Origin: a virus
Taxonomy: Duplodnaviria > Caudoviricetes
DNA length: 58,938 bases
IMG/VR virus record: IMGVR_UViG_3300038954_000089
Coordinates: 1-58,938 of that record
Reading direction: 5' to 3' (one strand)
The first letter of the stretch is position 1, and every line of letters starts with the position of its first letter. Under the pieces are notes generated by a model. That model was not told where the DNA came from and searched no databases. It saw only the letters and a list, made by a program, of their open reading frames with translations. Positions 4,083 to 35,211 of the stretch are shown here, one piece after another. Both the position numbers and the translations under genes were made by a program.

Positions 4083-4090
4083 GAGCATAG

Positions 4091-4543
4091 ATGCCGAATC
4101 CTGAATGGCTAATCCAAACTGAATTCACGGCGCGGACGAAAGAATTCGACGCGCCAAAAAACCTTACAGGTATGTTCACGGACGGGGAAGAGAAGGTTTT
4201 CCGCGTCCGTGGGCTTACCCTAAATGAAATATGCCGACGTGATGAGGAAGTAACGGCGATCAGAACGGATCATTTTAAGAACCTGATTGCCCGCGCTTTT
4301 GACACCGGGGAGGGCGGCGGACTTGCGGTGGCAGATGAAGCACTTGCCTATTACTTCGGCGACGCAAAAAAGACCAGGGCCGTAACAGTCCATCACATCT
4401 CAAATTGCGTTCAGGGGTGTGAATATCCTGAATTGAAACGCAATCATTGGGTGAAAATCGGAACCATCGCGCCTAAGTTTGTTGAAAAACTTTCCAATGC
4501 TATCGAAAACATGACCGGTGAGGGCGCCCAACCGGGGGAATAG
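4091..4543 (+). CDS. Tail assembly chaperone (gpG-like)
   Basis: Between tube and tape measure; ends in slippery G GGG GAA then TAG. Confidence 0.8.
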   Translation: MPNPEWLIQTEFTARTKEFDAPKNLTGMFTDGEEKVFRVRGLTLNEICRRDEEVTAIRTDHFKNLIARAFDTGEGGGLAVADEALAYYFGDAKKTRAVTVHHISNCVQGCEYPELKRNHWVKIGTIAPKFVEKLSNAIENMTGEGAQPGE

Positions 4544-5013: not shown

Positions 5014-7608
5014 ATGGCCGGCATTCAACGCACAATTGAAATTCTTTTCAGCGGGACCGATAACGTCTCCGGGGTCGCTGAATCCATAGGCGATAACCTA
5101 TCCGGGATCGGCGACGGGATACAGGACGCGACGCAGCCATTCGCCGATCTGACGGCGGCTATCGGCGTCGCTGAAGCAGCGTTTGCCGGGCTTGTGGGCG
5201 TGGCCATCGCGGGCAAGGCCGATATCGAAGACCTGGGGAAATCTATCCAGGCAACGCTCGGAATAACGGCGGATGAAGCGGCAGGTTTGGCCGATGAGGT
5301 TAAGGAAATATTCGCCGAAGGGTTTGACCTGGAGATATCGACAGAGGCCGTTACTTTCGCGTTTCAGCAGTTCCGGGATTCAGCGGAGGAGGATGTCGGG
5401 GCGATTGCATCCAGCGCAACAAAAATATCCCAGGCTTTCGGCGGCGATCTAAAGCAGACAATCGACGCGACCAAAACACTCACCGAGCAATTTGGCCTTA
5501 CAGGGAAAGAGGCGCTTGATTTCATAGCTTCCGGCTTTCAGTCTGGGCTTGACCGCTCCGGCGATTTCCTGGAAACGATCAACGAATACTCTACGCAGTT
5601 TAGTAGCGGCGGTGCGTCGGCCGAACAGTTTTTTTCGCTCCTGGATTCAGGGTTGCAAGGCGGGATACTCGGGACAGACCGCGCCGCAGATGCTTTCAAA
5701 GAGTTTCGTGTCCGAATCCAGGACGGATCGAAATCAACGAGAGAAGGTCTCGAAGCCATCGGAATTAACGCTGCCGACATGGCGGCGAAGTTTCAGAATG
5801 GGAGCATAACGGCGGCTGAAGCGTTTCAGATCGTCCTGAAGAATATTAATGAGACTGATGATCAAAGCAAAGCATTCCAGGCCGGTGTGGCTCTCCTTGG
5901 GACGCAGTTCGAGGATCTTGGCGACAAAGCAGCCAAGGGGTTGACGCTCGCCGGGACAGAGATGGAAGACCTGGCCGGATCGGCTGATCAGGTTGCCGAA
6001 AAGTTTGATACAATTGGCCAGGCTGCACAAGCGGCGTTCAATTCCATTCTTGCATCATTCGCCGATACTGATGCGCTGGATGGATTGTCAGACAAATTTG
6101 AAAAAATTTTTCAAAACATCGCGGAGAATTTCCCGAAGGCTCTGGAGGGTGTAGATTTCTCCGGGCTGAATGATGCGCTGGAAGACGTATTAAGCAACGC
6201 TGAAGGACTTATAAGCGACTTTTTCGGCGGGGTCGATCTGTCCACGCCGGAGGGGCTGGAGGCGGCAATACAGGCCATCGTGGACGCGCTCGAAGGATTC
6301 CAGGATATTGTCGGGGGCGTTATAGACGGGTTCGGGCCGTTAGTGGGATTTCTCGGTGATGCGTTAGATTATTTCAACGATTTGTCGCCGGAGGTCAAGG
6401 CCACTGCCGGCTTCATGCTCGCATTGGCGACGCAGGCGAATCTTGCGGCCGGGGCGTTATCCGGTATCGGCGGGGCTATCAGCGGAGCGGGGCAGGCGCT
6501 TGGTGGGCTTTCAACGGCGGGAAAAGCCGGTACCGCTGCTATCGGAAAACTTGCAACGGCTCTTGGACCGGCTGGCCTCGTGGTTGCCGCAGGGGCGGCC
6601 GGAGCGGCCATCGGGACCCTGATAAATCAAATCCCAGGCGTACAAGAGACGGTTCAAGGGGTAATCGCAGAAGTCGATAATTTTCTCGGTGGAGTGTTTT
6701 CGGCAGGGCCTACGCTTGACGAAATGGAGAAGATCGACAACGCTTTTTTCGCCGCAAAGCAACAGTTTCAGGAGACACAAAAAGCAGCCGAAGATACCAG
6801 CGAGGCAATTGCGAATGTTCCAGGTGAAAAAGAGGTCAACATTGCCACAAACACCGAGGAAGCACAGGCGAAGCTAAATCAACTCGGCGGTGACGTTGAC
6901 AGCCTGACAACCGATGAGTTTTTGCTGGCCATCGGAATCGATGACCAAGCAAGCAATGAAGTTAGACAGGCAAAAGAAGAGTTCCTGGCGCTTGATGGGA
7001 CGGTTGTTGAATTCGTCGGTAAGGCCGACACTGAAGATGCGAAAAAGGCGATTGAAGAACTTGTACCGCCAGACAAACGGCTTGAATTACAGGTTGAACT
7101 CGAAACCGCTCAGATCGAGGCCGACGCGGAGAGATTTGCCGCTCAAATGGAGGCGCTTCAATCGTCAGTTGAATGGGAAGCTAAACTTGATATTGCACAA
7201 GTTGAAGCGAATGCGCGGCAGGTAGAGGCCGCTTTCGAGTCAGTCAATACGACGATCCAAAGCACAGGAGACGTAATTTCAGAATCTCTCGGGCTGCTTG
7301 TCGGTCTGGGTGATGGCATCGGAAACGCGCTTGAAAAATTCGCGATTACAGAACAGATAAGAAAAGAAAATGAACTACGTGAACGGGCAATTAAATTACA
7401 GGAGAAATTGACGGAACAACAAATAGTAACAATGCGAGACCTGTCCGACAGGTTAAACTCGGATGATCCGATCAAATTGACGTTGAACACCGACAACCTA
7501 TCTCCAGCCCTTGAATTGGTTTGGGAGGAGATCCTCGAAGCATTGCAGGATCAGGCCGTGCTTGAGGGTGGTGATATGCTAGTTTCCATGTTGGGGTCGT
7601 CTTCATGA
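5014..7608 (+). CDS. Tape measure protein
   Basis: 864 aa A/G-rich helical protein; GLDRSGDFLETINEYS...TDRAADAFKEF minor-tail/TMP motif. Confidence 0.93.
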   Translation: MAGIQRTIEILFSGTDNVSGVAESIGDNLSGIGDGIQDATQPFADLTAAIGVAEAAFAGLVGVAIAGKADIEDLGKSIQATLGITADEAAGLADEVKEIFAEGFDLEISTEAVTFAFQQFRDSAEEDVGAIASSATKISQAFGGDLKQTIDATKTLTEQFGLTGKEALDFIASGFQSGLDRSGDFLETINEYSTQFSSGGASAEQFFSLLDSGLQGGILGTDRAADAFKEFRVRIQDGSKSTREGLEAIGINAADMAAKFQNGSITAAEAFQIVLKNINETDDQSKAFQAGVALLGTQFEDLGDKAAKGLTLAGTEMEDLAGSADQVAEKFDTIGQAAQAAFNSILASFADTDALDGLSDKFEKIFQNIAENFPKALEGVDFSGLNDALEDVLSNAEGLISDFFGGVDLSTPEGLEAAIQAIVDALEGFQDIVGGVIDGFGPLVGFLGDALDYFNDLSPEVKATAGFMLALATQANLAAGALSGIGGAISGAGQALGGLSTAGKAGTAAIGKLATALGPAGLVVAAGAAGAAIGTLINQIPGVQETVQGVIAEVDNFLGGVFSAGPTLDEMEKIDNAFFAAKQQFQETQKAAEDTSEAIANVPGEKEVNIATNTEEAQAKLNQLGGDVDSLTTDEFLLAIGIDDQASNEVRQAKEEFLALDGTVVEFVGKADTEDAKKAIEELVPPDKRLELQVELETAQIEADAERFAAQMEALQSSVEWEAKLDIAQVEANARQVEAAFESVNTTIQSTGDVISESLGLLVGLGDGIGNALEKFAITEQIRKENELRERAIKLQEKLTEQQIVTMRDLSDRLNSDDPIKLTLNTDNLSPALELVWEEILEALQDQAVLEGGDMLVSMLGSSS

Positions 7609-10435: not shown

Positions 10436-11854
10436 ATGGGTAAATCAACCATATCAAGCCATAGTGGCGAAGGTCTATATGAAGTAACCACAAAATATGA
10501 TGTGCAAAAAATAAACAATAAGATATCAAACCTTCAATTGTCCATTTCAAGAATAGAGACTCAAATATCAAACGAAGGGAACGAAAGTAAAAAAAGGGCA
10601 TTAAAGATTCACAAAGCCTCAAAAGAAAGACAACTTGTAAATTTACAATCCCTACCCTCTTCTGAACCCGAAACAATCTGGTGCGCAGATTACACGACGG
10701 ACCTTTCTGGAGATGTCGGAACGATTGAATTGTGCCGGGACGATGAAAAAACGAAAATCATCCGCCCCGGTTATGAAGGCGCGGCGGTTTATACCGTTTC
10801 ACGAGACGGGCAACTCCAAAACCCGCTCGGAGCGGCTGGACCGTTCACGGCCTATTACAATCTGGCTATTTTCCCGGCGGCGGCAAAATGGGCGAAACGG
10901 TATCGGGTGGGGGAGATCACAGCGTTGGCCGGCGATGTAGCGTCCGTATTACTCGACGCGGCGACGGTGCGCACGGGCCATACCGTACAGGAGGCCGAGA
11001 CCATAACTGGCGTCACAGTGCGGTATATGAACTGCCACGGGGCAGCGTTTGATGTTGGCGACAGGGTTGTGGTGGCCTATGAAAACGAAGTGCCGATTGT
11101 AATCGGATTCGAGACACACCCGCAACCATGTTTTGTCGGAGAGGGCGCCTGTTATATCCAGGGCCAAGTCATTTCGCTCGATGGTACCGAAAATGATGTG
11201 GGCCTGCGACTTTATATGTCAGACGCCACATTAGGTATCCAGTCAATATATGTCACCCAATCCGATTGGGTGGAATGGGCCGTGGGAAGCAATGTCCTTG
11301 CGGTCAATATGGATAATTGTACCTGTCCAAAAACATGCGAAAACCCTGAGATTTTCATTGAAAGCGCCAGTCTAATTTCCCTTCACAACGCGACAAGGGA
11401 AGATGAAGGCGTCAACCCGTTGACCGCCAACAGATTGCTTTATGATGCGGCTTCGGATCATGCCGACTGGTTATTGGCTAATTGTAGGCTTGGCCATACG
11501 GGCGAAGGCTTCACAAATTCAGCAGATCGAATTATCGCTGCCGGTTACACGGAAAGCGTAGTGGTTGGTGGGGAGTATGAAATAGGAGAGAACGTCGGCC
11601 TTGCTCGATCAGAGGATGAGGTTTATTCGGCATGGCTGGATAGCAGCGGACATTATGCAAATATCATTCGGGAGGGATATCATGAAATTGGAATTGCCAT
11701 TCGGGATGTTTCATCTTGTGATAATTTTTATTTGGAGGGCGACGGAACCTACGTTGATTTAGCCGCGACAGGTGAAACCTGGTATATATATGTAGTCAAT
11801 TTTGGGAGAAAACAGCCCTCCCCTTGGACAATTATTCCGATTGAGTTGGATTGA
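10436..11854 (+). CDS. Tail tip/baseplate protein with C-terminal CAP (SCP-like) domain
   Basis: YMNCHGAAFDVGDRVVV; HNATR...AASDHA..GH.G...GENV...WLDSSGHYANI...EIGI CAP signature. Confidence 0.75.
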   Translation: MGKSTISSHSGEGLYEVTTKYDVQKINNKISNLQLSISRIETQISNEGNESKKRALKIHKASKERQLVNLQSLPSSEPETIWCADYTTDLSGDVGTIELCRDDEKTKIIRPGYEGAAVYTVSRDGQLQNPLGAAGPFTAYYNLAIFPAAAKWAKRYRVGEITALAGDVASVLLDAATVRTGHTVQEAETITGVTVRYMNCHGAAFDVGDRVVVAYENEVPIVIGFETHPQPCFVGEGACYIQGQVISLDGTENDVGLRLYMSDATLGIQSIYVTQSDWVEWAVGSNVLAVNMDNCTCPKTCENPEIFIESASLISLHNATREDEGVNPLTANRLLYDAASDHADWLLANCRLGHTGEGFTNSADRIIAAGYTESVVVGGEYEIGENVGLARSEDEVYSAWLDSSGHYANIIREGYHEIGIAIRDVSSCDNFYLEGDGTYVDLAATGETWYIYVVNFGRKQPSPWTIIPIELD

Positions 11855-14486: not shown

Positions 14487-14687
14487 ATGAAAATTGGCAA
14501 AGTCAAAATCCGTAGGGGGCTATACCTCTACAGGGGCCGGAAAATGGTTGTAGAAATACGAGCCACAAAAAATCCTATAAAGGGTTGTAAATGGGGAACA
14601 TTTAACACCACAAGCGGGTCGTTATTGGCAAAAACAAAAACCCTGAAAGAGGCCATCGAAATGGCTTCTATCGAATGCAATTATTGA
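14487..14687 (+). CDS. Hypothetical basic protein
   Basis: ATG 14487 after a purine-rich SD. Confidence 0.55.
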   Translation: MKIGKVKIRRGLYLYRGRKMVVEIRATKNPIKGCKWGTFNTTSGSLLAKTKTLKEAIEMASIECNY

Positions 14688-14722
14688 AGCGACCCGTTGG
14701 CGCAGAACATGGAGGTGACTAT

Positions 14723-15082
14723 ATGAACGGCTACGAACTGTGGAAAATCCGTGAACAATTCAGCTTATCCCAGGCGGACCTTGCAGAGCAAACTGGGATC
14801 GCGCAATCTTCAATCTCTCGGTACGAGACCGGAAAGGGGCCGATCCCGGCCTACATCGAAAATTTGATCCGCCACACATTCAATGGGGCTATCCCGCCAG
14901 ATCCGCCAATTGAGATCACACCGGAGAAAATCCGGGAGATCCGCAACCGGTACCAGCTCCGACAACGGCATTTCGCGGCCATGCTCGGGCTATCTCAGGC
15001 GGCTATCCACAAATATGAGCGTGGCCAGATAAGGCCCTCGCAGCAAGTTGCTAAAAAAATTCTGGATTTGGACATTGAATAA
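14723..15082 (+). CDS. Tandem XRE helix-turn-helix regulator
   Basis: Two HTH units: LSQADLAEQTGIAQSSISRYE and LRQRHFAAMLGLSQAAIHKYE; SD GGAGG. Confidence 0.85.
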   Translation: MNGYELWKIREQFSLSQADLAEQTGIAQSSISRYETGKGPIPAYIENLIRHTFNGAIPPDPPIEITPEKIREIRNRYQLRQRHFAAMLGLSQAAIHKYERGQIRPSQQVAKKILDLDIE

Positions 15083-15612: not shown

Positions 15613-15653
15613 AAGGGGTGTCAATCTGACCATTCGGTTGACGCCCTTTTTTT
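15613..15653. terminator. Terminator between convergent genes
   Basis: AAGGGGTGTCAA/TTGACGCCCTTT stem with T run. Confidence 0.75.
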
Positions 15654-15975
15654 ATTCCGGCTTTTCCAACGAGATCGCCCTCGACGGAGCCCAGAATATC
15701 CGATCAGATCCCGGAAGCCGGATTTCATCATGCCCGAAAACGTGGATTTTGTGCATATATGCCTGGACATCCTTCGACGCGACGAAAACTTGCTGCTTGT
15801 CGATCATTTTTTGTGCGGCTTTAAAGTCCTCATCCTGGATCATGCTTATAAAATTGTCCAGGTGTTTCTCGGAGATCGCTATCGGATAGCCTTCTTTTAG
15901 CCAGCAGTCGCCCTGGGCAACGACCAGCCCCGCAATGGCCAAAACCAAAAAAGCCGCAAAAATCAATCGTTTCAT
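15652..15975 (-). CDS. Exported hypothetical protein
   Basis: Signal peptide MKRLIFAAFLVLAIAGLVVA; SD AAGGAGG. Confidence 0.7.
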   Translation of the reverse strand: MKRLIFAAFLVLAIAGLVVAQGDCWLKEGYPIAISEKHLDNFISMIQDEDFKAAQKMIDKQQVFVASKDVQAYMHKIHVFGHDEIRLPGSDRIFWAPSRAISLEKPE

Positions 15976-16184
15976 TTATCCTCCTTAAAAATAGGCAAAC
16001 TCTTACATTCAAAAGGCTTTAAAACTCTTGACGTACCATGCTCACGTTTTTGTTCCCAAAAACTAAAGTTACAGCTAAGAATCCCACGTTCATTGTTAAA
16101 GTGCTCGCAGAGGTCATGTTCGTCCCAGCAATAGTCTCCATCTGGGACACAAAAAACAAGGGCCACTTTTTGTTTCATTTTCAT
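15972..16184 (-). CDS. Cys-containing hypothetical protein
   Basis: Coupled to neighbours; SD GGAGG. Confidence 0.6.
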   Translation of the reverse strand: MKMKQKVALVFCVPDGDYCWDEHDLCEHFNNERGILSCNFSFWEQKREHGTSRVLKPFECKSLPIFKEDK

Positions 16185-16393
16185 TACCTCCTATCCTCCA
16201 ATTCGTCAAACAAGTCACAATAATTAACGCAAAGCGCCTTGGCAATTTTTTCAAGCGTTTTGAAATTCAGCCGCTTGAATTCGCCTTCCCGCGCGTAATG
16301 GATTTGATGTTGACCGACGCGGGCGAGTTTCGACAATTCCCGGAAAGTCAATCCCTTGGCTTCCATCAATCGCTTGACGTTGCTCCGAAACAT
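16184..16393 (-). CDS. Cro/C1-type HTH regulator, probably leaderless
   Basis: LMEAKGLTFRELSKLARV...TLEKIAKALCV..CDLF; -10 element lies 6 nt before ATG. Confidence 0.85.
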   Translation of the reverse strand: MFRSNVKRLMEAKGLTFRELSKLARVGQHQIHYAREGEFKRLNFKTLEKIAKALCVNYCDLFDELEDRR

Positions 16394-16399
16394 GGCGCT

Positions 16400-16464
16400 A
16401 TCATAACCAGCAGCAAGGCAAAAGTCAAAAAAAACTTGACAAGTGGATCAACTTTTTTTATCGT
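16400..16464. promoter_or_regulatory. Divergent sigma70 promoter pair
   Basis: Minus strand TTGACT-17-TATGAT (16428-16400); plus strand TTGACA-17-TATCGT (16436-16464). Confidence 0.7.
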
Positions 16465-16699: not shown

Positions 16700-16891
16700 T
16701 GAAAAAAAGAAAATGGAAGCACTATAATGAGTTTAGAGACTGTGCCTACCCAGTTATGCACCTTGACAAGAAAGGCCGCTGCTGCGGTAAAAAACCAGTT
16801 TTCTATACGTGCATTCAACCAGGATGGAACGCAGATAAATAATTGGGCGTGGTATATCGCCGCAAATGGTTTGTTTAGAAAAAAGGCTTGA
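16699..16891 (+). pseudogene. Frameshifted small gene
   Basis: MKKRKW...GRCCGKKPVFY continues plausibly only in another frame (RAFNQDGTQINNWAWY...). Confidence 0.4.
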
Positions 16892-16892
16892 T

Positions 16893-17807
16893 ATGGAAAC
16901 CATGCAAAATCAAGAGTTTGATACATTGCAAGCCACCAAAACATTTTTGAAATTCGCTTGCATGGCATTTTTCCCAATGCTGCTTGTAATTGTCATTGCC
17001 GGGATTTCCTATCAACTCATATCCGACGCCGGAGCCTTTTTCGGGGGCTGGTGGAAGGCTTTCTTTTTGGAAGCCGGGGCGCTGGCCCTGATCGCTTGGA
17101 GGCCAACGAACTGGACGAAGGTGCTTAAGGGGATTGCCCTGATTATTGCTTTTGGCCTGGTGGTTAACGCCGCCGGTATGCACGCCGCAAAACCTCACCT
17201 GGAGGACAGCGGCCTTGCAACGGTGGACCGGATGAAGCTGGAAGCCCTGGAAAGCTCCATCGAGGCGCACAGGGAAGCCGTGGCAGCCGTCAAGGGCCAA
17301 CCGCGCAACTCGGCGATGCGGGCCGGTGACCTGTCCGAAGCCATCGCGACAAGGGACGCATTTCTCGATAGCGTGGAACCGGATAAAACCGTTGTTGCAG
17401 AAAACCACATGGCAGCCGGAACCGCTATTCTTTTTCGTGCTGCGCTACAAGCAATAAACTGGCTTTTGCTGCATTGGCTTGTGTCTATAATTTCGATCAA
17501 AATGGGGAATGACCGTGAAAAGCGTATTGACGTTGCGCCAAATCCTCAACCGTCAGAAGTGAAAACCTCACCGGAACCGGAGGGAAAACCGCTTGCAAGC
17601 GCCGTCAAGTGGGATTCGGAAACACTCAAAATCCTAAGCAAGATCGAGCAAAACGGCGGTCAAATCAAGCGATTGAAGTTGCAGCAAGCGCGGATTGCCG
17701 ACACTGCCGGGCTTGACCCGAGACTGAATCAGCTTTTGGAGGCGGGGGTAATCGATCAGGAGCGGAACGGCAGATTGACCGAAACCATTTACAGGTTGAG
17801 GGGGTAA
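16893..17807 (+). CDS. Multi-pass membrane protein with coiled coil and C-terminal winged-helix-like domain
   Basis: About four hydrophobic segments; C-terminal LDPRLNQLLEAGVIDQ...YRL. Confidence 0.75.
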   Translation: METMQNQEFDTLQATKTFLKFACMAFFPMLLVIVIAGISYQLISDAGAFFGGWWKAFFLEAGALALIAWRPTNWTKVLKGIALIIAFGLVVNAAGMHAAKPHLEDSGLATVDRMKLEALESSIEAHREAVAAVKGQPRNSAMRAGDLSEAIATRDAFLDSVEPDKTVVAENHMAAGTAILFRAALQAINWLLLHWLVSIISIKMGNDREKRIDVAPNPQPSEVKTSPEPEGKPLASAVKWDSETLKILSKIEQNGGQIKRLKLQQARIADTAGLDPRLNQLLEAGVIDQERNGRLTETIYRLRG

Positions 17808-18465: not shown

Positions 18466-18708
18466 ATGAACGAATACGATAAACATCGAAATCAACTGCT
18501 TGAAAACATCTCACATGATGTCTGGGGTGCTGCACAATTATTGCCAGGTGAAGGGGTGGAGGATGGAGTAGCGCGAATAATGAATACATTGGATGGTTAC
18601 ATCACCCTGTTTGAATTCGCGATCAGAATAAAAGCCACGAAAGAGGGTGGCGAAATGATGAACGCGTTAAATGACGCGCTGAATGGCGACCGGTCAAAAA
18701 ATGGCTGA
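18466..18708 (+). CDS. Hypothetical protein
   Basis: SD GAGGTG; WGAAQLLPGEGVEDGVARI. Confidence 0.65.
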   Translation: MNEYDKHRNQLLENISHDVWGAAQLLPGEGVEDGVARIMNTLDGYITLFEFAIRIKATKEGGEMMNALNDALNGDRSKNG

Positions 18709-19099
18709 ATCTGGCTATGTGTATGTCATCTATGACCCCGACGTTCCGGCGGTCAAGATTGGCAAAGCGAAGGACGTTCAACGTCGCCTAAAAACATTTT
18801 TGACGGCGAACTACAATTTGGAATTGATCGGCGTCTTGCCGGGATACACGAAGCTGGAAAAAGAGCTACATCGACGCTTTGAATGGGCGAAAATTGACCG
18901 GGAGTGGTTTCACCCGGTCCCTGAGATTCTCGCAATCGCCCGGAGCGGGCAACATCAACCCAAAGCACGGCCGCCGCGAAGGGAGGCGCGGCGGTCAAAA
19001 CCAAAGCGGAGGCAGGCAAGCGATTCAAACGTTCGATATTTTATCGCATTATTGGTTATCGCTTGGGTTGTTTTTGTGATTTCAAATTTGAGAGGTTGA
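18701..19099 (+). CDS. GIY-YIG/T5orf172-like protein with C-terminal transmembrane helix
   Basis: GYVYVI...VKIGKAKDVQRRL...EKELHRRF...REWF; hydrophobic tail FIALLVIAWVVFVI. Confidence 0.8.
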   Translation: MAESGYVYVIYDPDVPAVKIGKAKDVQRRLKTFLTANYNLELIGVLPGYTKLEKELHRRFEWAKIDREWFHPVPEILAIARSGQHQPKARPPRREARRSKPKRRQASDSNVRYFIALLVIAWVVFVISNLRG

Positions 19100-19368: not shown

Positions 19369-19719
19369 ATGTCATGGCTCACCTATTTTGAATCGGCAAT
19401 CACCCAGACCGCCGACACCGGTTCTGGCGCTAACACTGATTTTAATCTTTCGGATGTAGATCCCACCGAATACCCCGGATTCCATGCGGCAGCACAACGG
19501 GAAGGGTGGGACAACCTGTCCCCGGAGAACCGGGCCGAAGTGGTGGACCGTTTCGTCAACGCCGAGGTGGGCGCCACCTTGACCAGGGCCGCCGAAAGGC
19601 ATGGCTACGATGAACAGGAGGTGCTCGATCATTACGGATACGCCCCGCAGAGGGGCTCTACCGAAAAACCGACCACAATGGGGCCGTTCGATTGGTTGAT
19701 TAAAAAACTTTTTTTCTGA
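19369..19719 (+). CDS. Hypothetical acidic protein
   Basis: SD GGAGG; first gene of the membrane operon. Confidence 0.75.
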   Translation: MSWLTYFESAITQTADTGSGANTDFNLSDVDPTEYPGFHAAAQREGWDNLSPENRAEVVDRFVNAEVGATLTRAAERHGYDEQEVLDHYGYAPQRGSTEKPTTMGPFDWLIKKLFF

Positions 19720-19892
19720 TGGATTTCTTTGAAGAAATTTGTTGGGTCACCACCGGGATCATCGCCGGTCTGGGATTTAGCGCGGTCTGGGGCGCCCCGC
19801 CGGTAACATGGGCTCTGGCGGGGGTCGCCCTCTTCGCCCTGCTGGCAGGAACCGGGGCGCTGATTATCGCCGTAAGGAAATTTTCAAAATGA
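19719..19892 (+). CDS. Small two-TM membrane protein (57 aa; not in ORF track)
   Basis: MDFFEEICWVTTGIIAGLGFSAVWGAPPVTWALAGVALFALLAG...; TGATG and ATGA coupling at its ends. Confidence 0.7.
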   Translation: MDFFEEICWVTTGIIAGLGFSAVWGAPPVTWALAGVALFALLAGTGALIIAVRKFSK

Positions 19893-20269
19893 AAGAGAAT
19901 ATACTGATTTTATCAATCTTTATAGCTTGTGCCTTCAGCGGCGGGGTTATGGTGGCCGGTGGCCTGCTGCCTGCCACGGTCTGGTATTGGCTGATCGGGG
20001 GTGGGGTGCTGGTCGCCGTAATGGCTTTGTTCATCGGGGGTCTTTTGGGTGTGGTCTGGCTGACGAGGCCAAGGCGCCAGCAGCAGGAACATGTTGACCC
20101 ATGGCGAGAGTACCGCCCAACAACAGATCGGGCCTTACAGGGGCACTCCGGCCGCCCTGCGGTCTGGTTTAGTGCCAATGGCCGTCAACAGATCGACCAC
20201 CAGCAACATGAGCAATTATCCGTCTACCAGCCGAAGGGGGGCGCATTGTGTCGAAGAGATCGGAGTTGA
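19889..20269 (+). CDS. Membrane protein with Q-rich tail
   Basis: Two long hydrophobic segments from MKENILIL. Confidence 0.7.
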   Translation: MKENILILSIFIACAFSGGVMVAGGLLPATVWYWLIGGGVLVAVMALFIGGLLGVVWLTRPRRQQQEHVDPWREYRPTTDRALQGHSGRPAVWFSANGRQQIDHQQHEQLSVYQPKGGALCRRDRS

Positions 20270-20372
20270 CAAAACTCGAAAAGGCCATTGGCGCCGTATA
20301 CCTTACGTTGACCATTGTCTGCTGCTTGGTCTGGGCATGTCTGTTCATCTATCACTTTTAAAAGGAGGAAAT

Positions 20373-20945
20373 ATGTTACACCCACTGCACCCCAAACGAT
20401 TGATTTGGCTGATAATCGCCATTGCTTGTGCGGCCATGGCTGTTCACCTGGCGGTGGGCCTGGCCGCTGACCTTCACAACGAGGCTTATCTCATCGATGA
20501 CAGGATTTCAGAAGGTGAAAAGGGATGGGATCTGGAGATATACGATGGGCGATACATTGCTTTTGTTTTCGCCTTCCCAGACCGGCTTGTCCGAAATTAT
20601 GGCGAGAAGGTAGAGGGTGTACCCAAGGGGTGGAAATACGAGCGCAAGATTGACGTGCTGACATATTGCTCTATACAAGAGGCGGTTGATGTTTTTCTCG
20701 ACGTTGCAAACGAAAATAACCCAAAATTCAAGATAGTTGATGGCCAAAACTCGCCATCAAATCACCGTCATTTTGGCATAGAAGTATGGGACCCTGGTAG
20801 TGGTTTATTAGTTGTGGAAATTGATTTTATCGGCAACCGGGCCGACGTGCAGATTCATAACGGGTATCAAACCACGGGTAGAACTGAGGCATTTCTCAGT
20901 GCCCTGAAGGCAACTATCCGAAACCGAAAAATCATAAAGGGGTGA
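20373..20945 (+). CDS. Membrane-anchored or exported protein
   Basis: SD AAGGAGG then ATG 20373; N-terminal TM. Confidence 0.7.
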   Translation: MLHPLHPKRLIWLIIAIACAAMAVHLAVGLAADLHNEAYLIDDRISEGEKGWDLEIYDGRYIAFVFAFPDRLVRNYGEKVEGVPKGWKYERKIDVLTYCSIQEAVDVFLDVANENNPKFKIVDGQNSPSNHRHFGIEVWDPGSGLLVVEIDFIGNRADVQIHNGYQTTGRTEAFLSALKATIRNRKIIKG

Positions 20946-20948
20946 GCC

Positions 20949-21554
20949 ATGCAAACATTGAGAAACGAACGGGGTTTTATACAATGGATACCCTTGGTGA
21001 TCTGTATTTTGCTCGTCCTGTACGTCGGCGGCATGTTGGCCTGGGATAAAGTGGCCACGTGGGCGCGCCACCGTGAGCTGATCGCCGAGCACCGCGCAAA
21101 ACAGGCAGCGGCCATCGAGGAGAAACGAATAGCCGCCGAGCAGGAAACTGCCCAAAAGCAGATCGAATCGATGCAAGCTGCTTATCAAGATCAGGCAGAG
21201 ATCAACCGCCGGCTGATCGATGAGAATGCCAAAACCGCCGACCGCATAGCAACCGCTCACGAGCAGGCCGCCGATGAGATCGCAACCAGCCACCGAAACA
21301 TGGCCGACATGATGCTGCAATGGGCCGACAGGGGGCAGAACGGCCTATCCCTTGGGGTTGCTTACCTGCTTGGCGCCGTTGCTCTGGTGGCTATTATGGG
21401 GCTGGTGGCCACAGTGTTTTTCGTTCTTCGGCAGGGTGCGAAACATGAGGGGCCGACGATCATTCAAATCGATGGCCAGCCTGTAACGGGCCGAATTGCC
21501 AGTGGGGCCGACGTTTACAAACTGATAGAACATAGAAAGGAATCAATGCGATGA
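20949..21554 (+). CDS. Two-TM coiled-coil protein with prepilin-like (class III) N-terminus
   Basis: MQTLRNERG|FIQWIPLVICILLVL; central coiled coil; second TM. Confidence 0.7.
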   Translation: MQTLRNERGFIQWIPLVICILLVLYVGGMLAWDKVATWARHRELIAEHRAKQAAAIEEKRIAAEQETAQKQIESMQAAYQDQAEINRRLIDENAKTADRIATAHEQAADEIATSHRNMADMMLQWADRGQNGLSLGVAYLLGAVALVAIMGLVATVFFVLRQGAKHEGPTIIQIDGQPVTGRIASGADVYKLIEHRKESMR

Positions 21555-21904
21555 ATAGAAATAATCGATATGACGATCTTATGAGAGCTTTGGTGCCGCA
21601 GCAGGGTGGACCGCAGCAAGGCCACCAGCCGGCCGGACATCAACCAATGGCAGCATATCCGGTTTATCCGCCGGGGCCGATGCCGTACCAGCAGCAACCG
21701 CCATATTACGTTGGGTCCGCACCTATTCAGCAGCAGCCTATGCCGTACCAGCAACTGCAGCCGACATATCCCGACACTGCACCGATGCTCCCCAGACAAC
21801 CGCAGCAACCCCGGAAACAGGGTCCTTCGGCGATAGATACAGCGGCTGTGATCTTTTGTGTAGCTTGTGTCCTGATCTTTTTGGCTGCGATGCTACCGCA
21901 GTAA
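21551..21904 (+). CDS. P/Q/Y-rich low-complexity protein with C-terminal TM
   Basis: PMPYQQ repeats; hydrophobic tail. Confidence 0.7.
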   Translation: MNRNNRYDDLMRALVPQQGGPQQGHQPAGHQPMAAYPVYPPGPMPYQQQPPYYVGSAPIQQQPMPYQQLQPTYPDTAPMLPRQPQQPRKQGPSAIDTAAVIFCVACVLIFLAAMLPQ

Positions 21905-21914
21905 AGGTGATGAT

Positions 21915-23195
21915 ATGATTGGGAAAATAGCCAAAATGTTTTTGGTAGGCGGTATGGGCCTTTTTCTGTTGCTGACGGCCTGCTTCGCCCTGGCCGGGGT
22001 CTCCTGGGGCATGAATGGCGTGGTGGTCTCCATCGCGGCGCTGATCGCCGTGGGCCTGGTGGGGACCGTCATCTTGATTTGGATCCTAGGCGCGGCGGAG
22101 AGCCTGTTTCTCCGGTTCGCCCTCGTATGGCAAGCTCTTCGGAGAATCCGGGCAGAGACCGAAAAACAGGAATTCGCGGCAGACTATTATCAGATCAATC
22201 ATCCCGTGGCTGGCGCCGTGGCCGTGGATCGCAACGGGCGGATGATTAGATTGGACCCGGCGGCATCAAAACCGAAAGATTCTCCGGTACCAGAACAGGA
22301 GCCGGAGGACGACGGGCCGGAAATCGCCGGGCCTCTGCTGCCTATTCTGGAGGGGATGAGCAGGATTCTCTTGATAGGCGGCATGGGGGCCGGGAAAACT
22401 GAGCTGCTCCGGCATCTGGCGTGGGCGAAAGCCCAACAGGACGGACATGTCATAATTTGCGATTCACACGCAAGCCCAACAACTTGGCCTAATTTCGTTC
22501 AAGTCGCTGGAATCGGACGGAATTATGAGGAAATCGAGGGGGCTGTCAATTACGTTTGCGAAGAGCTTGACAACCGGTATAAACTCCGCGCAAGCGGCGA
22601 GCAAAAACGATTTGAACAGTTGACGCTCGTGGTTGACGAGCTATTTGTTCTCAATCAATTCTGTGACTTGCGGCAACAATTCAAGTCCCTGCTGGCCGAA
22701 AGCCGCAAGGTCAATATCGGCCTGATCGTCGCCGGGCAGTCGGATCGGGCCGGGGCGCTAGGTTTGACCGGGAACAAGGATCTTGTGGCCGGATTCGAAG
22801 CGTGTGTCTACCTTGAGCGCCTCGACAATGGGCAACGGGTGGGATTTATCCGAAGCAGCAACCGGCGAGACGGGAAATATTATCTGCATCCGGGGCCGTT
22901 CCGGGGGCGTGGTGGGGGCGCTTCGGGGCGGTGGAGTGGGGAAGGGGGTAGGGGCAATAACACACACACACACACAAATAGAAAACAAGGATTTGGAACA
23001 GAAAATGAGCCATTCAGTCCGTGTGTGTATGTACCCATGACAGATATTGACGCAGACGGAAGAAACGCGGAAATAATTGAACAGTACAGACAAGGAAATT
23101 CAATATCAGCTATCATGAAAAAAGTTTTCGGCCATAGGGGGGGCGCACAAGCAGACCAAATTAAAAACATTTTGAGACGATACGGGATAGCATAA
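21915..23195 (+). CDS. Membrane-anchored FtsK/HerA/VirD4-like P-loop ATPase with C-terminal HTH-like domain
   Basis: Two N-terminal TMs; Walker A GGMGAGKT; Walker B LVVDE; ELDNRY and ESRKVNIGLIVAGQ motifs. Confidence 0.8.
   Translation: MIGKIAKMFLVGGMGLFLLLTACFALAGVSWGMNGVVVSIAALIAVGLVGTVILIWILGAAESLFLRFALVWQALRRIRAETEKQEFAADYYQINHPVAGAVAVDRNGRMIRLDPAASKPKDSPVPEQEPEDDGPEIAGPLLPILEGMSRILLIGGMGAGKTELLRHLAWAKAQQDGHVIICDSHASPTTWPNFVQVAGIGRNYEEIEGAVNYVCEELDNRYKLRASGEQKRFEQLTLVVDELFVLNQFCDLRQQFKSLLAESRKVNIGLIVAGQSDRAGALGLTGNKDLVAGFEACVYLERLDNGQRVGFIRSSNRRDGKYYLHPGPFRGRGGGASGRWSGEGGRGNNTHTHTNRKQGFGTENEPFSPCVYVPMTDIDADGRNAEIIEQYRQGNSISAIMKKVFGHRGGAQADQIKNILRRYGIA
22961..22976 (+). repeat. (CA)8 microsatellite inside the ATPase gene
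   Basis: CACACACACACACACA, preceded by several G runs. Confidence 0.9.
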
Positions 23196-23241
23196 TTTTA
23201 TATCTCTTGACATATCTTTACATATATGATAAGGACTACCC

Positions 23242-23460
23242 ATGAAAGACGTTAAGGTAACGAGATCGATCAGGCCGGATCATAAGGACATCGGAGGCGT
23301 TCAAAAAGTATTCGGAGATAGTCTCGTAAAGGTTCGCTATTATCTCAACACGGCTACAGGCGAACGATGGAAAACTGTAGAGCTTTTATGGGAGGATCAA
23401 TGGAAGGATATGTCTACATCATGTCAAATGAATCCTACAAAGATGGAATCTACAAAATAG
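23242..23460 (+). CDS. Hypothetical protein
   Basis: FGDSLVKVRYY...RWKTVEL; follows a TTGACA-type promoter at about 23207. Confidence 0.6.
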   Translation: MKDVKVTRSIRPDHKDIGGVQKVFGDSLVKVRYYLNTATGERWKTVELLWEDQWKDMSTSCQMNPTKMESTK

Positions 23461-23996
23461 GGTTCACGAAAAACCACCCAGAGCAACGGGCGCAAGAGCT
23501 TTACCAGGCAACCGGAGTCCCGACAGAATTCAAAGTTGAATTTTTTACTCCATGTACCGATATGACAATGTGCGAAAATATCATCCATTCATGGCTTTAC
23601 CGATACAGAATGAACGGCAAGCGGGAGTTTTTCGAGATCGATATTGACCGCGCAATAGACTTGTTAATAAGAGCCGCTGAATATCAAGCCACAATTGGAA
23701 CCAACCAAATGTTGAAACGCATGCTTGATAATGAAGATGATGTATGTCTTACAGAGGGCGAGGTACAAATGGAATCAGAAGATGAGGAATTCGATTCAAA
23801 TGAAAAGCCTGAACTAACAATATCTGGTTTGGTATGCATGAACGACGTGGACGCCACCGGAAGGGATGCCGAGATCATCCAGATGTATCGAAACGGGGAA
23901 ACCGTATCGGCGATTAGAAAAAAGGTCTATGGCCAGTCCGGGGGGAAATACATCGAGCTGATTCGTGGCGTTTTGTATCGCTACGGGGTCGCATGA
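23400..23996 (+). CDS. T5orf172/GIY-YIG domain protein with C-terminal domain shared with the ATPase
   Basis: GYVYIMSN...YKIGFT..PEQRAQEL..TGVPT.F...REFF. Confidence 0.85.
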   Translation: MEGYVYIMSNESYKDGIYKIGFTKNHPEQRAQELYQATGVPTEFKVEFFTPCTDMTMCENIIHSWLYRYRMNGKREFFEIDIDRAIDLLIRAAEYQATIGTNQMLKRMLDNEDDVCLTEGEVQMESEDEEFDSNEKPELTISGLVCMNDVDATGRDAEIIQMYRNGETVSAIRKKVYGQSGGKYIELIRGVLYRYGVA

Positions 23997-24212
23997 TGCC
24001 CAAAAAAGAAACAAAAAAGCTGCTATGGCATGGTCTGACGAATTTTTCCGCCGCCGGTTCGATTGCCATCCCACAGATGAGACGCCGGAGGCGGTCCAGA
24101 AATGGGCGGATATTTATATCGGCCGTAATGATGTGGGCAAAAAGGCAGTTAAAATAATACTCAAGTAATTGACTTGATACAACAAACCAGCAAGGCCGGA
24201 TTTTTTTGATCT

Positions 24213-24280
24213 GGCCTATTTTTTTCCTTGACAGGGTGCCCTTAGAGGGTATATATTGTTTTCCAGGATAGGGAAAAACA
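24213..24280 (+). promoter_or_regulatory. Repeated promoter cassette, copy 1
   Basis: CTTGACAGGGTGCCCTTAGAGGGTATATA...CCAGGATAGGGAAAAA, near-identical to 26316-26382. Confidence 0.85.
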
Positions 24281-35040: not shown

Positions 35041-35211
35041 GTGGAGACAGCTACTGAAAAGCTTGAAAAAAGGATCACCCTGGTAGTTGACCCAGAGATA
35101 AAAGAATGGGCTCGAAAAGAGGCCGAAAAGCGGAAGTGGAGCCTGTCACTCTACTGCCGGGAACTACTCAGGGAGGCGATGGAGCGGGGGCTCTCAAATG
35201 GGGCTGAATAA
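35041..35211 (+). CDS. Ribbon-helix-helix protein (not in ORF track)
   Basis: KRITLVVDPEIKEWARKEAEKRKWSLSLYCRELLREAM. Confidence 0.7.
   Translation: METATEKLEKRITLVVDPEIKEWARKEAEKRKWSLSLYCRELLREAMERGLSNGAE

What the first reader, a model, noticed from the sequence alone, without database searches (positions are those of the whole stretch)
19369..23195. Uncharacterised membrane operon ending in a TM-anchored FtsK/VirD4-like ATPase
Seen: seven tightly packed co-oriented genes, six with TM segments. They include a coiled-coil protein, a P/Q/Y-rich membrane protein and an ATPase (GMGAGKT, LVVDE, RK...AGQ) with a C-terminal HTH-like domain. A four-TM, coiled-coil, winged-helix protein lies upstream (16893-17807). 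Established: FtsK-like TraB plus small Spd membrane proteins mediate dsDNA transfer in actinomycete plasmids. Inference: a phage-encoded membrane DNA translocation, segregation or cell-to-cell spread module. With no integrase visible, it could serve a plasmid-like state.
Basis: partly seen in the sequence, partly recalled or inferred. Interest (0 to 1): 0.72.

Follow-up and report, generated by a model that had tools for sequence, protein, structure and literature searches.

The report
Phage membrane-anchored FtsK-like ATPase operon
A tailed phage from tidal-flat sediment carries an operon of small membrane proteins ending in a membrane-anchored FtsK-type motor ATPase with a DNA-binding tail; the same unnamed ATPase family sits on tiny cyanobacterial plasmids and small integrative elements, so it probably handles the element's own DNA at the cell membrane, but its role is untested.

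Summary
Seven tightly packed + strand genes (19369-23195) lie in a complete 58.9-kb phage genome with terminal repeats. Six of the seven have TM-like segments, against 8 of 86 other ORFs.

The last gene (426 aa) has N-terminal TM helices, a minimal ~200-aa RecA-type ATPase and a C-terminal three-helix HTH. Its model is closest to TcpA (Z 18.3), EccC and FtsK. No Pfam, NCBIfam or PHROG model reaches its cut-off, yet 1124 cluster representatives match in metagenomes.

Relatives lie on small cyanobacterial plasmids (pDU1, pCC7120zeta) and on small integrase/primase islands in Desulfobacterales genomes. There they usually end a string of small genes that includes a TM plus coiled-coil protein. Only that build is shared: g1-g6 have no sequence relatives there.

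Best reading (0.45): a relaxase-free membrane DNA translocase module of mobile elements, built like Streptomyces TraB/Spd or clostridial TcpA, but a separate family. Its purpose is open: transfer, segregation or DNA entry.

Rivals are defence or exclusion, and a lysis role for the small proteins (no endolysin was found anywhere in the genome).

This scan has noted similar phage modules on other DNA before.

The parts
19369..19719 (+). g1, 116 aa, no TM segment; first gene of the packed cluster, unknown function
   Evidence: No family hit below E 0.09.
19719..19892 (+). g2, 57 aa small membrane protein (hydrophobic stretch 25-52)
   Evidence: Its start overlaps the g1 stop by 1 nt.
19889..20269 (+). 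g3, 126 aa, 2-3 N-terminal TM segments and a Q/R/P-rich tail
   Evidence: Its ATG overlaps the g2 stop (ATGA). Weak PHROG 'membrane protein' hit, E 7e-4.
20373..20945 (+). g4, 190 aa, N-terminal Ala/Gly-rich TM or signal anchor plus a ~160-aa domain of unknown fold
   Evidence: The Atlas model is of low confidence and gives no usable match.
20949..21554 (+). g5, 201 aa: TM, ~100-aa coiled-coil-like stretch, TM, then a conserved tail (GRIASGADVY.LIEH)
   Evidence: Four homologues at 55-65% identity (alignment). The same build is found upstream of the ATPase in 8 of 10 genomic loci.
21551..21904 (+). g6, 117 aa, P/Q/Y-rich (50 of 117 residues) and tail-anchored by a C-terminal TM
   Evidence: P/Y-rich tails are fused to the g5-like proteins in the Desulfobacterales loci.
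21915..23195 (+). g7, 426 aa: TM helices, long helix and beta hairpin (1-105), acidic linker, minimal FtsK/HerA-type ATPase, disordered G-rich linker, three-helix HTH
   Evidence: AF2 model with mean pLDDT 85. Fold matches. Family size.
22317..22919 (+). ATPase domain of g7 (residues 135-335): Walker A G155-T162, Walker B D241 E242, invariant R264, and Q275/R278 in the AGQSDRA motif
   Evidence: Invariant columns in 62- and 17-sequence alignments. VIA-align Z 18.3 to TcpA and 16.0 to FtsK over model residues 134-374.
23052..23192 (+). C-terminal HTH domain of g7 (residues 380-426)
   Evidence: Three helices with pLDDT >90 in the whole-protein model, and 79 when folded alone. The best fold rows are all DNA-binding HTHs but weak. 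29 of 54 residues are identical to the end of the next T5orf172 protein.
23367..23996 (+). T5orf172/MUG113 (GIY-YIG-like) protein with the same C-terminal HTH; probably a separate transcription unit
   Evidence: Pfam T5orf172 E 4.4e-15. PADLOC PDC-S57 E 2.5e-25. HTH shared with g7. TTGACA promoter-like site at 23205-23213.
18683..19099 (+). Second T5orf172/MUG113 protein, with a C-terminal TM; flanks the cluster upstream
16866..17807 (+). Multi-TM protein with a charged helical middle part; first large gene of the presumed operon
   Evidence: No family hit. Link to the module is by position only.
16436..16464 (+). Promoter-like site from which the 16.4-23.2 kb gene string may be read
   Evidence: 10 of 12 consensus match. 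No copy of the phage's T-run/TTGACA motif lies between 16.8 and 23.2 kb. This is inference.
24193..24217 (+). Terminator-like hairpin followed by a T run, after the T5orf172 gene

Best explanation
The cluster encodes a membrane DNA-handling machine of a kind shared by phages, small plasmids and small integrative elements.

**Proposed mechanism**
- g7 is held in the cytoplasmic membrane by its N-terminal helices.
- By analogy with FtsK, TraB and TcpA, its minimal FtsK/HerA-type ATPase domain forms a ring that pumps double-stranded DNA.
- Its C-terminal HTH picks the DNA to act on, most likely a site on the element itself.
- The TM/coiled-coil protein g5 and the P/Q/Y-rich tail-anchored g6 are dedicated partners that build or position the membrane passage. 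g2-g4 may be further partners.

**Shown here:** the gene order, the membrane anchoring, the fold class, the conserved catalytic residues, the presence of a DNA-binding-type domain, and the recurrence of the ATPase with a g5-like neighbour on other mobile elements.

**Inferred:** ring formation, DNA pumping, partner binding, and the purpose. The purpose could be transfer of element DNA to a neighbouring cell without a relaxase, segregation of an episome at the septum, or help with DNA entry.
For: **Fold**
- AF2 model, mean pLDDT 85 and >95 across the ATPase.
- Foldseek top rows are TcpA 6o1x (E 1.3e-8), FtsK 6t8b/2ius and EccC 4nh0.
- VIA-align: TcpA Z 18.3 (189 aa, rmsd 2.8), EccCb1 16.7, FtsK 16.0, EccC 15.9, TrwB 14.8, HerA 14.6, VirB4 13.1, RecA-like about 13.

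**Motifs**
- Invariant in 62 sequences: G155, G160, K161, D183, R221, D241, E242, R264.
- In the closest 17 sequences, also S276 and R278 of AGQSDRA.
- This resembles the FtsK Walker A, Walker B and 'TQRP' motifs. That comparison is recalled, not computed.

**Architecture is a family trait**
- 62 of 62 aligned members have a TM-like segment before Walker A and a 69-134-aa tail over the HTH columns.
- The 61 relatives were picked by me from the best 150, all 388-471 aa long.
- The C-terminal domain is replaced by other DNA-binding domains in some members: MarR_2 in 2 of 62 and RFX in 1 of 62.

**Carriers are mobile elements**
- Plasmids: 12 PLSDB records, all cyanobacterial and all typed non-mobilizable. 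pDU1 is filed twice, so these are 11 plasmids. They include pCC7120zeta, 5.6 kb, whose other large gene is a DUF3854 plus VapE-type replication protein, and pDU1, 6.4 kb.
- Genomes: 7 of 401 in the order sample around a Desulfobacterales MAG. Integrase, NrS-1-type primase and DUF3987 genes lie beside the ATPase.
- Atlas: the nearest cluster is 58% viral.

**Neighbourhood**
- A TM plus coiled-coil-like protein on the same strand lies upstream in 8 of 10 genomic loci, within 0.75 kb in seven and within 2.6 kb in one. I classified these by eye from the sequences.
- Membrane proteins lie directly upstream in 5 of 8 plasmid loci.
- In all 8 plasmid loci the ATPase follows co-oriented small genes (one to eight of them), which are tightly packed in the Calothrix, Allocoleopsis and Pseudanabaena loci.

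**Precedent**
- TraB plus Spd proteins form a DNA translocation complex in Streptomyces (PMC4447253, abstract read).
Against: - No function was tested.
- g1-g6 have no sequence match in the eleven Desulfobacterales and Chlorobiota stretches compared by BLAST. Only the g5-like build recurs. Two of 10 genomic loci (L021, L029) and 3 of 8 plasmid loci lack it at my threshold.
- The ATPase is only the RecA-like core. There is no FtsK alpha or gamma domain hit and no T4CP all-alpha domain. Ring formation was not modelled.
- HTH fold matches are weak: best Foldseek E 0.9 and best Z 6.0, below the tool's own noise guide.
- No repeat array that could serve as a clt- or KOPS-like site lies near the cluster. 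No 8-mer stands out apart from a promoter-like motif.
- The likely hosts have two membranes. No wall hydrolase or outer-membrane part was found in the cluster.
- The best named-library hit is a defence protein model, PADLOC mad8, E 5.3e-11. T5orf172 genes with PADLOC PDC-S57 hits flank the cluster.
- No relative was found in 50,697 deposited phage records with three queries.
Confidence: 0.45

Rival explanations
1. Defence or superinfection-exclusion module. A membrane-bound ATPase senses or acts on incoming foreign DNA. It may work with the neighbouring T5orf172 (GIY-YIG-like) protein, which carries the same HTH and would be aimed at the same DNA.
For: - The g7 ATPase region matches PADLOC mad8, E 5.3e-11. 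MAD7/MAD8 is described as an ATPase-nuclease module of the MADS system (PMC13662399, passages read).
- The flanking T5orf172 proteins match candidate defence families PDC-S57 (E 2.5e-25 and 4.3e-7) and PD-Lambda-1.
- The HTH is shared between g7 and the T5orf172 protein, 29 of 54 residues identical.
- The cluster sits in an early-looking gene string just after a switch-like region with Xre-type HTH genes. From general knowledge, phages often keep exclusion genes in such a place.
- HNH nuclease-like ORFs, named by eye from their motifs, follow the ATPase in 3 of 10 genomic loci (L023, L027, L030).
Against: - The other MADS genes are absent. None of the other 9 proteins scanned hits a mad model.
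- The match covers only the generic ATPase core.
- The ATPase is one of two large genes on 5.6-6.4-kb plasmids, an unusual load for a defence gene.
- The T5orf172 gene has its own promoter-like site and is not found beside the relatives.
Confidence: 0.2
2. The small proteins are the phage's lysis or envelope cassette: holin/antiholin g2 and g3, a signal-anchored lysin g4, a spanin-like g5. The ATPase is an unrelated or regulatory neighbour.
For: - No endolysin was found anywhere in the genome with PF00959, PF01510, PF01464 or PF08291. The PF00182 search rang in no control genome and says nothing. PHROG and Pfam scans of 50 ORFs found no lysin either.
- The cluster lies downstream of the tail genes.
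- g5 gives weak hits to Rz-like spanin families, E 4.3e-4 and 9.8e-3.
- g4 has an Ala/Gly-rich N-terminal anchor.
Against: - The spanin hits are at noise level for a coiled coil, and g5 has two TM segments.
- g6 has no signal or lipobox.
- g5-like proteins sit beside the ATPase on integrative islands and plasmids that have no virion or lysis genes.
- g5/g6 overlap by 4 nt and g6/g7 are 10 nt apart, which suggests one unit.
- 5.5 kb of regulatory and small genes separate the tail genes from the cluster.
Confidence: 0.1
3. Protein export machine of the type VII kind. An EccC/EssC-like membrane ATPase with small membrane partners secretes phage proteins.
For: - EccC/EssC domains are among the best structural matches: Z 16.7, 15.9, 14.4.
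- Other first-stage notes on this genome report several structural genes with signal peptides. I did not check them.
Against: - g7 has one ATPase domain, not three.
- It ends in a DNA-binding-type HTH, which other members replace with MarR- or RFX-type DNA binders.
- No WXG100-like substrate or EccB/D/E-like partner was recognised.
Confidence: 0.05

Closest known systems
TcpA, coupling protein of the Clostridium perfringens plasmid pCW3 (PDB 6o1x)
   Same: Best structural match: Z 18.3, 189 residues, rmsd 2.8; Foldseek E 1.3e-8. From recall, TcpA is likewise an FtsK-like ATPase held in the membrane by N-terminal TM segments and encoded on a mobile element.
   Different: - 14-18% identity, and no Pfam FtsK_SpoIIIE hit over the cut-off.
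- From recall, TcpA works within a multi-gene Tcp locus with a VirB4-like ATPase and a VirB6-like protein. Nothing of that kind is in this cluster.
- g7 has a C-terminal HTH.
Streptomyces TraB with Spd proteins (pSVH1, pIJ101, AICEs)
   Same: - Same logic: TM anchor, FtsK-type motor and C-terminal DNA-binding domain in one protein.
- It is encoded with several small membrane proteins on small plasmids and integrative elements that have a replication gene and no relaxase.
- TraB/Spd is reported as a multiprotein DNA translocation complex (PMC4447253, abstract).
   Different: - No detectable sequence similarity. A tblastn of PLSDB with g7 found only two cyanobacterial plasmids.
- The motor is about half the size, and the HTH has no wing in the model.
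- No clt-like 8-bp repeat array was found.
- Carriers are a tailed phage, cyanobacterial plasmids and Desulfobacterales islands, not actinomycetes.
FtsK/SpoIIIE chromosome translocases
   Same: RecA-like beta domain fold, Z 16.0 to E. coli FtsK. Same order of parts: TM, linker, motor, linker, DNA-binding domain. The profile hits FtsK chains at E 5.7e-5.
   Different: No alpha domain, no gamma winged helix, fewer TM segments, 426 aa against more than 700. Not chromosomal.
Type IV coupling proteins (TrwB/VirD4/TraD)
   Same: Z 14.8 to TrwB. TrwB_AAD_bind hits at E<0.01 in 22 of 62 members. PGAP names one relative a 'type IV secretory system conjugative DNA transfer family protein'.
   Different: - The hits cover little more than the P-loop (profile positions 14-51 of 387).
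- There is no all-alpha domain.
- No relaxase or T4SS genes lie nearby, and all 12 plasmid records are typed non-mobilizable.
MAD8 of the MADS defence system
   Same: The only library model with a clear hit: PADLOC mad8, E 5.3e-11, over residues 147-279.
   Different: The other mad genes are absent. Nothing in the passages I read says whether MAD8 has a TM anchor or HTH. The match is to the ATPase core only.

Membership tests
FtsK-HerA superfamily of P-loop ATPases | RecA-like core whose closest structural relatives are FtsK/HerA-type pumps | tested here: met
   The top 13 VIA-align rows are TcpA, EccC/EssC, FtsK, TrwB, DndH-C, HerA and three entries titled only 'ATPase' (Z 18.3-13.5). RecA-type rows start at Z 13.4. 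Foldseek agrees.
FtsK-HerA superfamily of P-loop ATPases | Walker A, Walker B (DE), and a conserved Arg and polar residue after the sensor strand | tested here: met
   G155/G160/K161, D241/E242 and R264 are invariant in 62 sequences. S276 and R278 are invariant in the closest 17. Their assignment as Arg finger and sensor is by analogy, from recall.
FtsK-HerA superfamily of P-loop ATPases | Hexameric ring with a central channel | not tested
   The complex tool takes at most four copies, and I used its one job on g5/g7.
FtsK/SpoIIIE proper (Pfam PF01580 with FtsK_alpha and FtsK_gamma) | Match to PF01580 over its cut-off, and presence of alpha and gamma domains | tested here: not met
   g7 has no PF01580 hit at E<=1. 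9 of 62 members hit it at E<0.01, best 1.2e-5. No FtsK_alpha or FtsK_gamma appears among the 25 of 51 matched families that one search shows.
Streptomyces TraB | Sequence similarity to TraB of actinomycete plasmids | tested here: not met
   A tblastn of g7 against 72,556 PLSDB plasmids at E<=1e-3 found only Nostoc and Pseudanabaena records.
Streptomyces TraB | TM anchor, FtsK-type motor and C-terminal DNA-binding domain in one chain | tested here: met
Streptomyces TraB | clt locus of short direct repeats bound by the C-terminal domain | tested here: not met
   No repeat array in 16-25 kb. The only arrays in the genome lie elsewhere, for example 35555-35626. A dispersed or degenerate site would be missed.
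Streptomyces TraB | Accompanied by Spd membrane proteins | tested here: inconclusive
   Small membrane proteins are present, but none hits any family. I held no Spd sequences to compare.
Type IV coupling protein (VirD4/TrwB/TraD) | Family model over cut-off, all-alpha domain, partner relaxase and T4SS | tested here: not met
   TrwB_AAD_bind 17.0 bits against a cut-off of 20.5, over the P-loop region only. TraD_Ftype 15.5 bits against 521. The ATPase domain is about 200 aa with no inserted helical domain. The 12 plasmid records that hold relatives are all typed non-mobilizable. No relaxase or T4SS family hit in the 10 proteins scanned.
MADS defence system | Eight-gene mad1-mad8 operon | tested here: not met
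   Only g7 hits a mad model. The other 9 neighbouring proteins scanned hit none.
Type VII secretion EccC/EssC | Three tandem FtsK-like ATPase domains after the TM segments | tested here: not met
   One ATPase domain in 426 aa.
Phage lysis cassette | Recognisable endolysin with holin and spanin | tested here: inconclusive
   No lysin family was found in the cluster or in the genome. g5 gives weak spanin hits only. The g4 fold is unknown.

The most novel reading that the evidence does not exclude
This family is the motor of a relaxase-free, FtsK-type double-stranded DNA spread system outside the actinomycetes. Small plasmids, integrative elements and even tailed phages of two-membrane bacteria would use it to pass their genomes directly between attached sister cells, or across a closing septum, without virions or a type IV secretion system.

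For this phage it would mean a second, particle-free route of spread or inheritance. That fits a genome with a switch-like region but no integrase.

From recall, all eleven plasmids carrying relatives come from filamentous cyanobacteria, which is what this reading predicts. Sampling bias was not controlled.
Probability: 0.17. Interest if true: 0.88.

Novelty: new variant of a known kind. Interest (0 to 1): 0.6.

Why it matters
FtsK-type single-protein DNA transfer is textbook only for mycelial actinomycetes. Here a distinct minimal motor family has the same overall build. It has at least 1124 cluster representatives in metagenomes and no curated family model. It turns up on a tailed phage, on classic cyanobacterial plasmids (pDU1, the replicon behind Anabaena shuttle vectors, and pCC7120zeta) and on small integrative elements of sulfate-reducer genomes.

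If it moves DNA, it would explain two things. It would show how 'non-mobilizable' small plasmids and islands spread or persist. It would also give phages a route of inheritance that leaves no virions.

The cyanobacterial plasmids make the question directly testable in a genetically tractable, harmless host. If it is instead a defence or exclusion device, it is a new membrane-bound one.

Tried and rejected
**Family libraries.** Nothing reaches a curated cut-off for any of g1-g7 or the upstream ORF in Pfam, PHROGs or NCBIfam. PHROG terminase and transposition-protein hits to g7 (E 1.6e-3, 4.6e-2) are P-loop noise.

**PDB by sequence.** The single protein gave one chance hit. In the profile search the top rows (midasin, RecA concatemers) are repeated P-loop matches and were discarded. 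TrwB (2.1e-7) and FtsK (5.7e-5) match mainly the P-loop.

**Relatives in virus collections.** INPHARED gave none with three queries. IMG/VR pattern scans gave none with g7, alignment A2, P0155 or P0164. This method only finds near relatives, and the Atlas lists viral clusters, so these blanks do not show absence.

**Metagenome contig scan.** Only two short loci. They were useless for context.

**Close relatives.** I compared contig lengths as a proxy. Only g4 and g5 homologues share a length (4311 bp).

**Complex prediction of g7 with g5.** No verdict: score 0.00, controls not run. This counts neither for nor against binding.

**g4.** The Atlas model has low confidence (pLDDT 0.43) and the structural rows are uninformative.

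**HTH folded alone.** Only weak rows. The HTH class was not assigned.

**Repeats and k-mers.** No candidate binding-site array near the cluster.

**Sequencing runs.** No RNA holder listed. Four other tidal-flat runs hold fragments of the region as short contigs, identical and diverged. A few joints with short sides were not interpretable. The runs are of one year and habitat and may be one campaign.

**Related head module.** It lies on a 34.9-kb contig of one genome in the order sample, but that contig shares only portal-to-connector genes. It says nothing about the cluster.

**Literature.** Searches, and passages read, turned up no description of this family. Supplementary files were not consulted.

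**Rejected idea.** That g7 is the plasmid replication protein. pCC7120zeta has a separate DUF3854/VapE protein, and pDU1 has a separate 373-aa ORF that, from recall, is its replication gene.

Full report
**What the window is.** The window is a whole virus record of 58,938 bp with direct terminal repeats, rated 100% complete. It is a tailed phage.
- Large terminase 48299-50632, portal 50479-52041, head protease/capsid 53560-55827, tape measure 5014-7608.
- Annealing protein, resolvase, DnaD-like loader, primase/helicase, helicase, methyltransferase and a ParB-like protein.
- Nearly all genes are on the + strand, and there are no tRNAs.
- No tyrosine or serine recombinase domain is found anywhere.
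- Runs that hold the DNA are labelled tidal flat metagenome.
- A head module with up to 58% identity lies on a contig of one genome in the order sample around a MAG titled Desulfobacterales. The nearest genomic relatives of the ATPase lie in that order too. A Desulfobacterales host is therefore likely but not shown.

**The observation.** Seven + strand genes run from 19369 to 23195 with overlaps of 1-4 nt or gaps of 3-10 nt, apart from one 103-nt gap before g4.
- Six of the seven have TM-like segments, against 8 of 86 other + strand ORFs.
- g5 is TM, about 100 residues of A/E/Q/R-rich sequence with no proline, then TM.
- g6 is 43% P, Q and Y and is tail-anchored.
- g7 has the quoted Walker motifs.
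- The phage's own promoter-like motif (a T run plus TTGACA; seven copies of the 10-mer on the + strand, none on the other, 0.12 expected) is absent between 16.8 and 23.2 kb. A shorter form follows 10 nt after the g7 stop.
- The cluster is therefore probably read with the upstream genes from about 16.44 kb, just after a region with Xre-type HTH genes on both strands. The T5orf172 gene that follows is a separate unit ending at a terminator-like hairpin, 24193-24217.

**The ATPase.** No curated model covers it. An exhaustive phmmer search of 1.84 billion cluster representatives gave 1124 matches at E<=1e-3, 473 at <=1e-10 and 24 at <=1e-30. Most listed hits are 390-470 aa.

I aligned g7 with 61 of the best 150, all of 388-471 aa, and left out short or atypical ones.
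- G155, G160, K161, D183, R221, D241, E242 and R264 are invariant.
- All 62 have a TM-like segment before Walker A and a 69-134-aa tail over the HTH columns.

The AlphaFold model from this alignment has mean pLDDT 85.
- Two TM helices, the second running on as a long helix.
- A beta hairpin, then an acidic disordered linker.
- A compact alpha/beta ATPase at 135-335, with pLDDT above 95.
- A 45-residue disordered G-rich linker, then three helices.

Foldseek ranks TcpA, FtsK and EccC first. The Foldseek-independent search gives TcpA Z 18.3, EccCb1 16.7, FtsK 16.0, EccC 15.9, TrwB 14.8, DndH 14.8, HerA 14.6 and VirB4 13.1, with RecA-like proteins near 13.

The domain is only the RecA-like core, though. 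No alpha, gamma or all-alpha domain is present, and the protein fails the Pfam models of FtsK and of coupling proteins. The one clear library hit is PADLOC mad8 (E 5.3e-11, residues 147-279). MAD8 is half of an ATPase-nuclease module of the MADS system (PMC13662399, passages). The rest of that system is absent here.

**The C-terminal domain.**
- Folded alone with seven relatives, it is a three-helix bundle with pLDDT 79.
- The best rows are DNA-binding HTHs: GcrA (TM 0.62/0.73), Sin and Tn3 resolvase HTHs, TrpR and Tc3. Foldseek E is at best 0.9 and Z at most 6.0, which the tool itself rates as possibly a common arrangement.
- More telling, other members carry MarR-type or RFX-type domains at this position (sequences). 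The position is evidently reserved for a DNA binder.
- The same domain ends the next gene, a T5orf172 protein: 29 of 54 residues identical, E 1e-16. Another first-stage note on this genome reports the same.

**Where the family lives.** With g7, PLSDB gave two cyanobacterial plasmids. With the pCC7120zeta protein it gave 12 records, all cyanobacterial and all typed non-mobilizable. pDU1 is filed twice, so these are 11 plasmids.
- pCC7120zeta is 5,584 bp. Its other large ORF runs across the record start and carries DUF3854 and VapE-like domains (E 1.1e-21 and 2.1e-62), a primase/helicase-type replication protein.
- pDU1 is 6,361 bp with a 373-aa ORF, a small integrase and the ATPase.
- In Calothrix, Allocoleopsis and Pseudanabaena plasmids the ATPase ends a run of three to eight co-oriented small genes. 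By my hydropathy scan, 5 of 8 plasmid loci have membrane proteins directly upstream.

Among prokaryote genomes, a pattern scan found three Desulfobacterales MAGs and one Chlorobiota MAG. Profile searches found 5 of 401 genomes in the class sample and 7 of 401 in the order sample.
- Integrases lie nearby, with PF00589 at E 9.8e-33 and 1.2e-22.
- NrS-1-type primase-polymerases with DUF5906 or VapE helicase parts, and DUF3987, lie nearby too.
- These are small self-replicating integrative elements.

The Atlas's nearest cluster is 58% viral, the next mostly cyanobacterial. The family is thus a mobile-element family spanning phage, plasmid and island.

**Co-conservation.**
- By sequence it is thin. 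g4 and g5 have homologues at 68% and 66% identity, each on a contig of 4311 bp, probably the same one.
- None of g1-g6 matches anything in the other genomic loci.
- By build it is clear. A protein with a TM segment, a long charged helical stretch, often a second TM and a P/Y-rich tail lies on the same strand upstream of the ATPase in 8 of 10 genomic loci. Its end overlaps the ATPase start in L025. It is absent in L021 and L029.
- In the window the same features are split between g5 and g6.
- These classes were assigned by eye plus a hydropathy scan, not by a statistical test.

**Reading.** Five things point to a DNA-handling machine at the membrane that belongs to the core of small mobile elements:
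- a membrane anchor;
- an FtsK-type motor;
- an exchangeable DNA-binding end;
- dedicated small membrane partners;
- residence on relaxase-free small replicons and islands.

The closest analogue in logic is Streptomyces TraB with Spd proteins (PMC4447253, abstract). The closest in structure is TcpA. It is not a member of either: no sequence similarity, a smaller motor, and no clt-like repeats. I put 0.45 on DNA translocation and leave the purpose open.

**Other readings.**
- Defence or exclusion (0.2) rests on the mad8 hit, the T5orf172 flanks with PDC-S57 hits, the shared HTH and the early-operon position.
- A lysis role for g2-g5 (0.1) cannot be dismissed, because no endolysin was found in the genome. 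The g5-like partners on elements without virions argue against it for g5 and g6.
- Type VII-like protein export (0.05) fits the fold but not the DNA-binding end.

**Novelty and earlier notes.**
- Five literature searches found no description of the family.
- This scan's own notebook holds several follow-ups on other genomes that describe membrane-anchored FtsK-like modules in phages, shared with integrative elements and cyanobacterial plasmids.
- I reached the plasmid and island contexts before reading those notes. I did not test whether theirs is the same family, so they count as agreement and not as evidence.

**From recall, not from any call.** These statements rest on my own knowledge: the FtsK 'TQRP' motif and arginine finger; the TM anchor and Tcp locus of TcpA; the build of AICEs; the pDU1 minimal replicon and its use in shuttle vectors; and the filamentous habit of the cyanobacterial genera listed.

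Noticed in passing
window 13502, 14134, 15104, 26325, 41405, 44118, 46155; also 23205, 29391, 39209: A T-run plus TTGACA motif (10-mer TTTTTCTTGA) occurs 7 times on the + strand and never on the - strand, against 0.12 expected. A shorter form, TCTTGACA, occurs at three more places. It is probably the phage's promoter type and would define its transcription units.
   Followed up: partly
window 22960-22976 and 23021-23029: An (AC)8 run lies inside the disordered linker of the ATPase, between motor and HTH, after a G-rich tract. A (GT)4 run follows 45 nt later. A 2-nt slip would cut off the HTH. The read-laying tool skipped repeats at 22951-22988, so variation could not be judged.
   Followed up: no
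window 23367-23996 and 18683-19099: Two T5orf172/MUG113 (GIY-YIG-like) genes bracket the cluster. Both match the PADLOC candidate family PDC-S57. One ends in the ATPase's HTH, the other in a TM segment.
   Followed up: partly
window 35555-35626: An 11-bp unit repeated 6.4 times lies inside the DnaD-like loader gene 35198-36025. It may be iterons of the replication origin.
   Followed up: no
whole window: No integrase or resolvase domain was found, and no endolysin with the Pfam lysin families tried, one of which rang in no control genome. Lifestyle and lysis genes of this phage are unassigned.
   Followed up: partly
window 14675-15082 (+), 16184-16393 (-), 15652-15975 (-): Switch-like region: a double Xre-type HTH protein on the + strand, and a short - strand block with an Xre-like protein and a signal-peptide protein, just before the gene string that holds the cluster.
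   Followed up: no
window 10436-11854: A 472-aa protein after the tail genes has a C-terminal CAP (cysteine-rich secretory protein) domain, E 1.9e-11.
   Followed up: no
L019 16325-17035, L022 6206-6598, L023 14988-15602, L007 4345-4854, L021 6929-7723: A coiled-coil protein ending in a conserved motif (GKW/W..Q/K...YY/Y.R...G....LG...EA) lies near the ATPase in five Desulfobacterales loci. It has no Pfam hit, and no counterpart was found in the window.
   Followed up: partly
L023 (oriented 3161-3487), L030 2420-2746, L027 (oriented 3990-4343): Small ORFs with HNH nuclease-like motifs (named by eye) follow the ATPase in three genomic loci.
   Followed up: no
L029 (G004, Chlorobiota MAG): The ATPase relative is split into two ORFs of 260 and 142 aa. 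This could be a frameshift, an assembly error or a broken gene.
   Followed up: no
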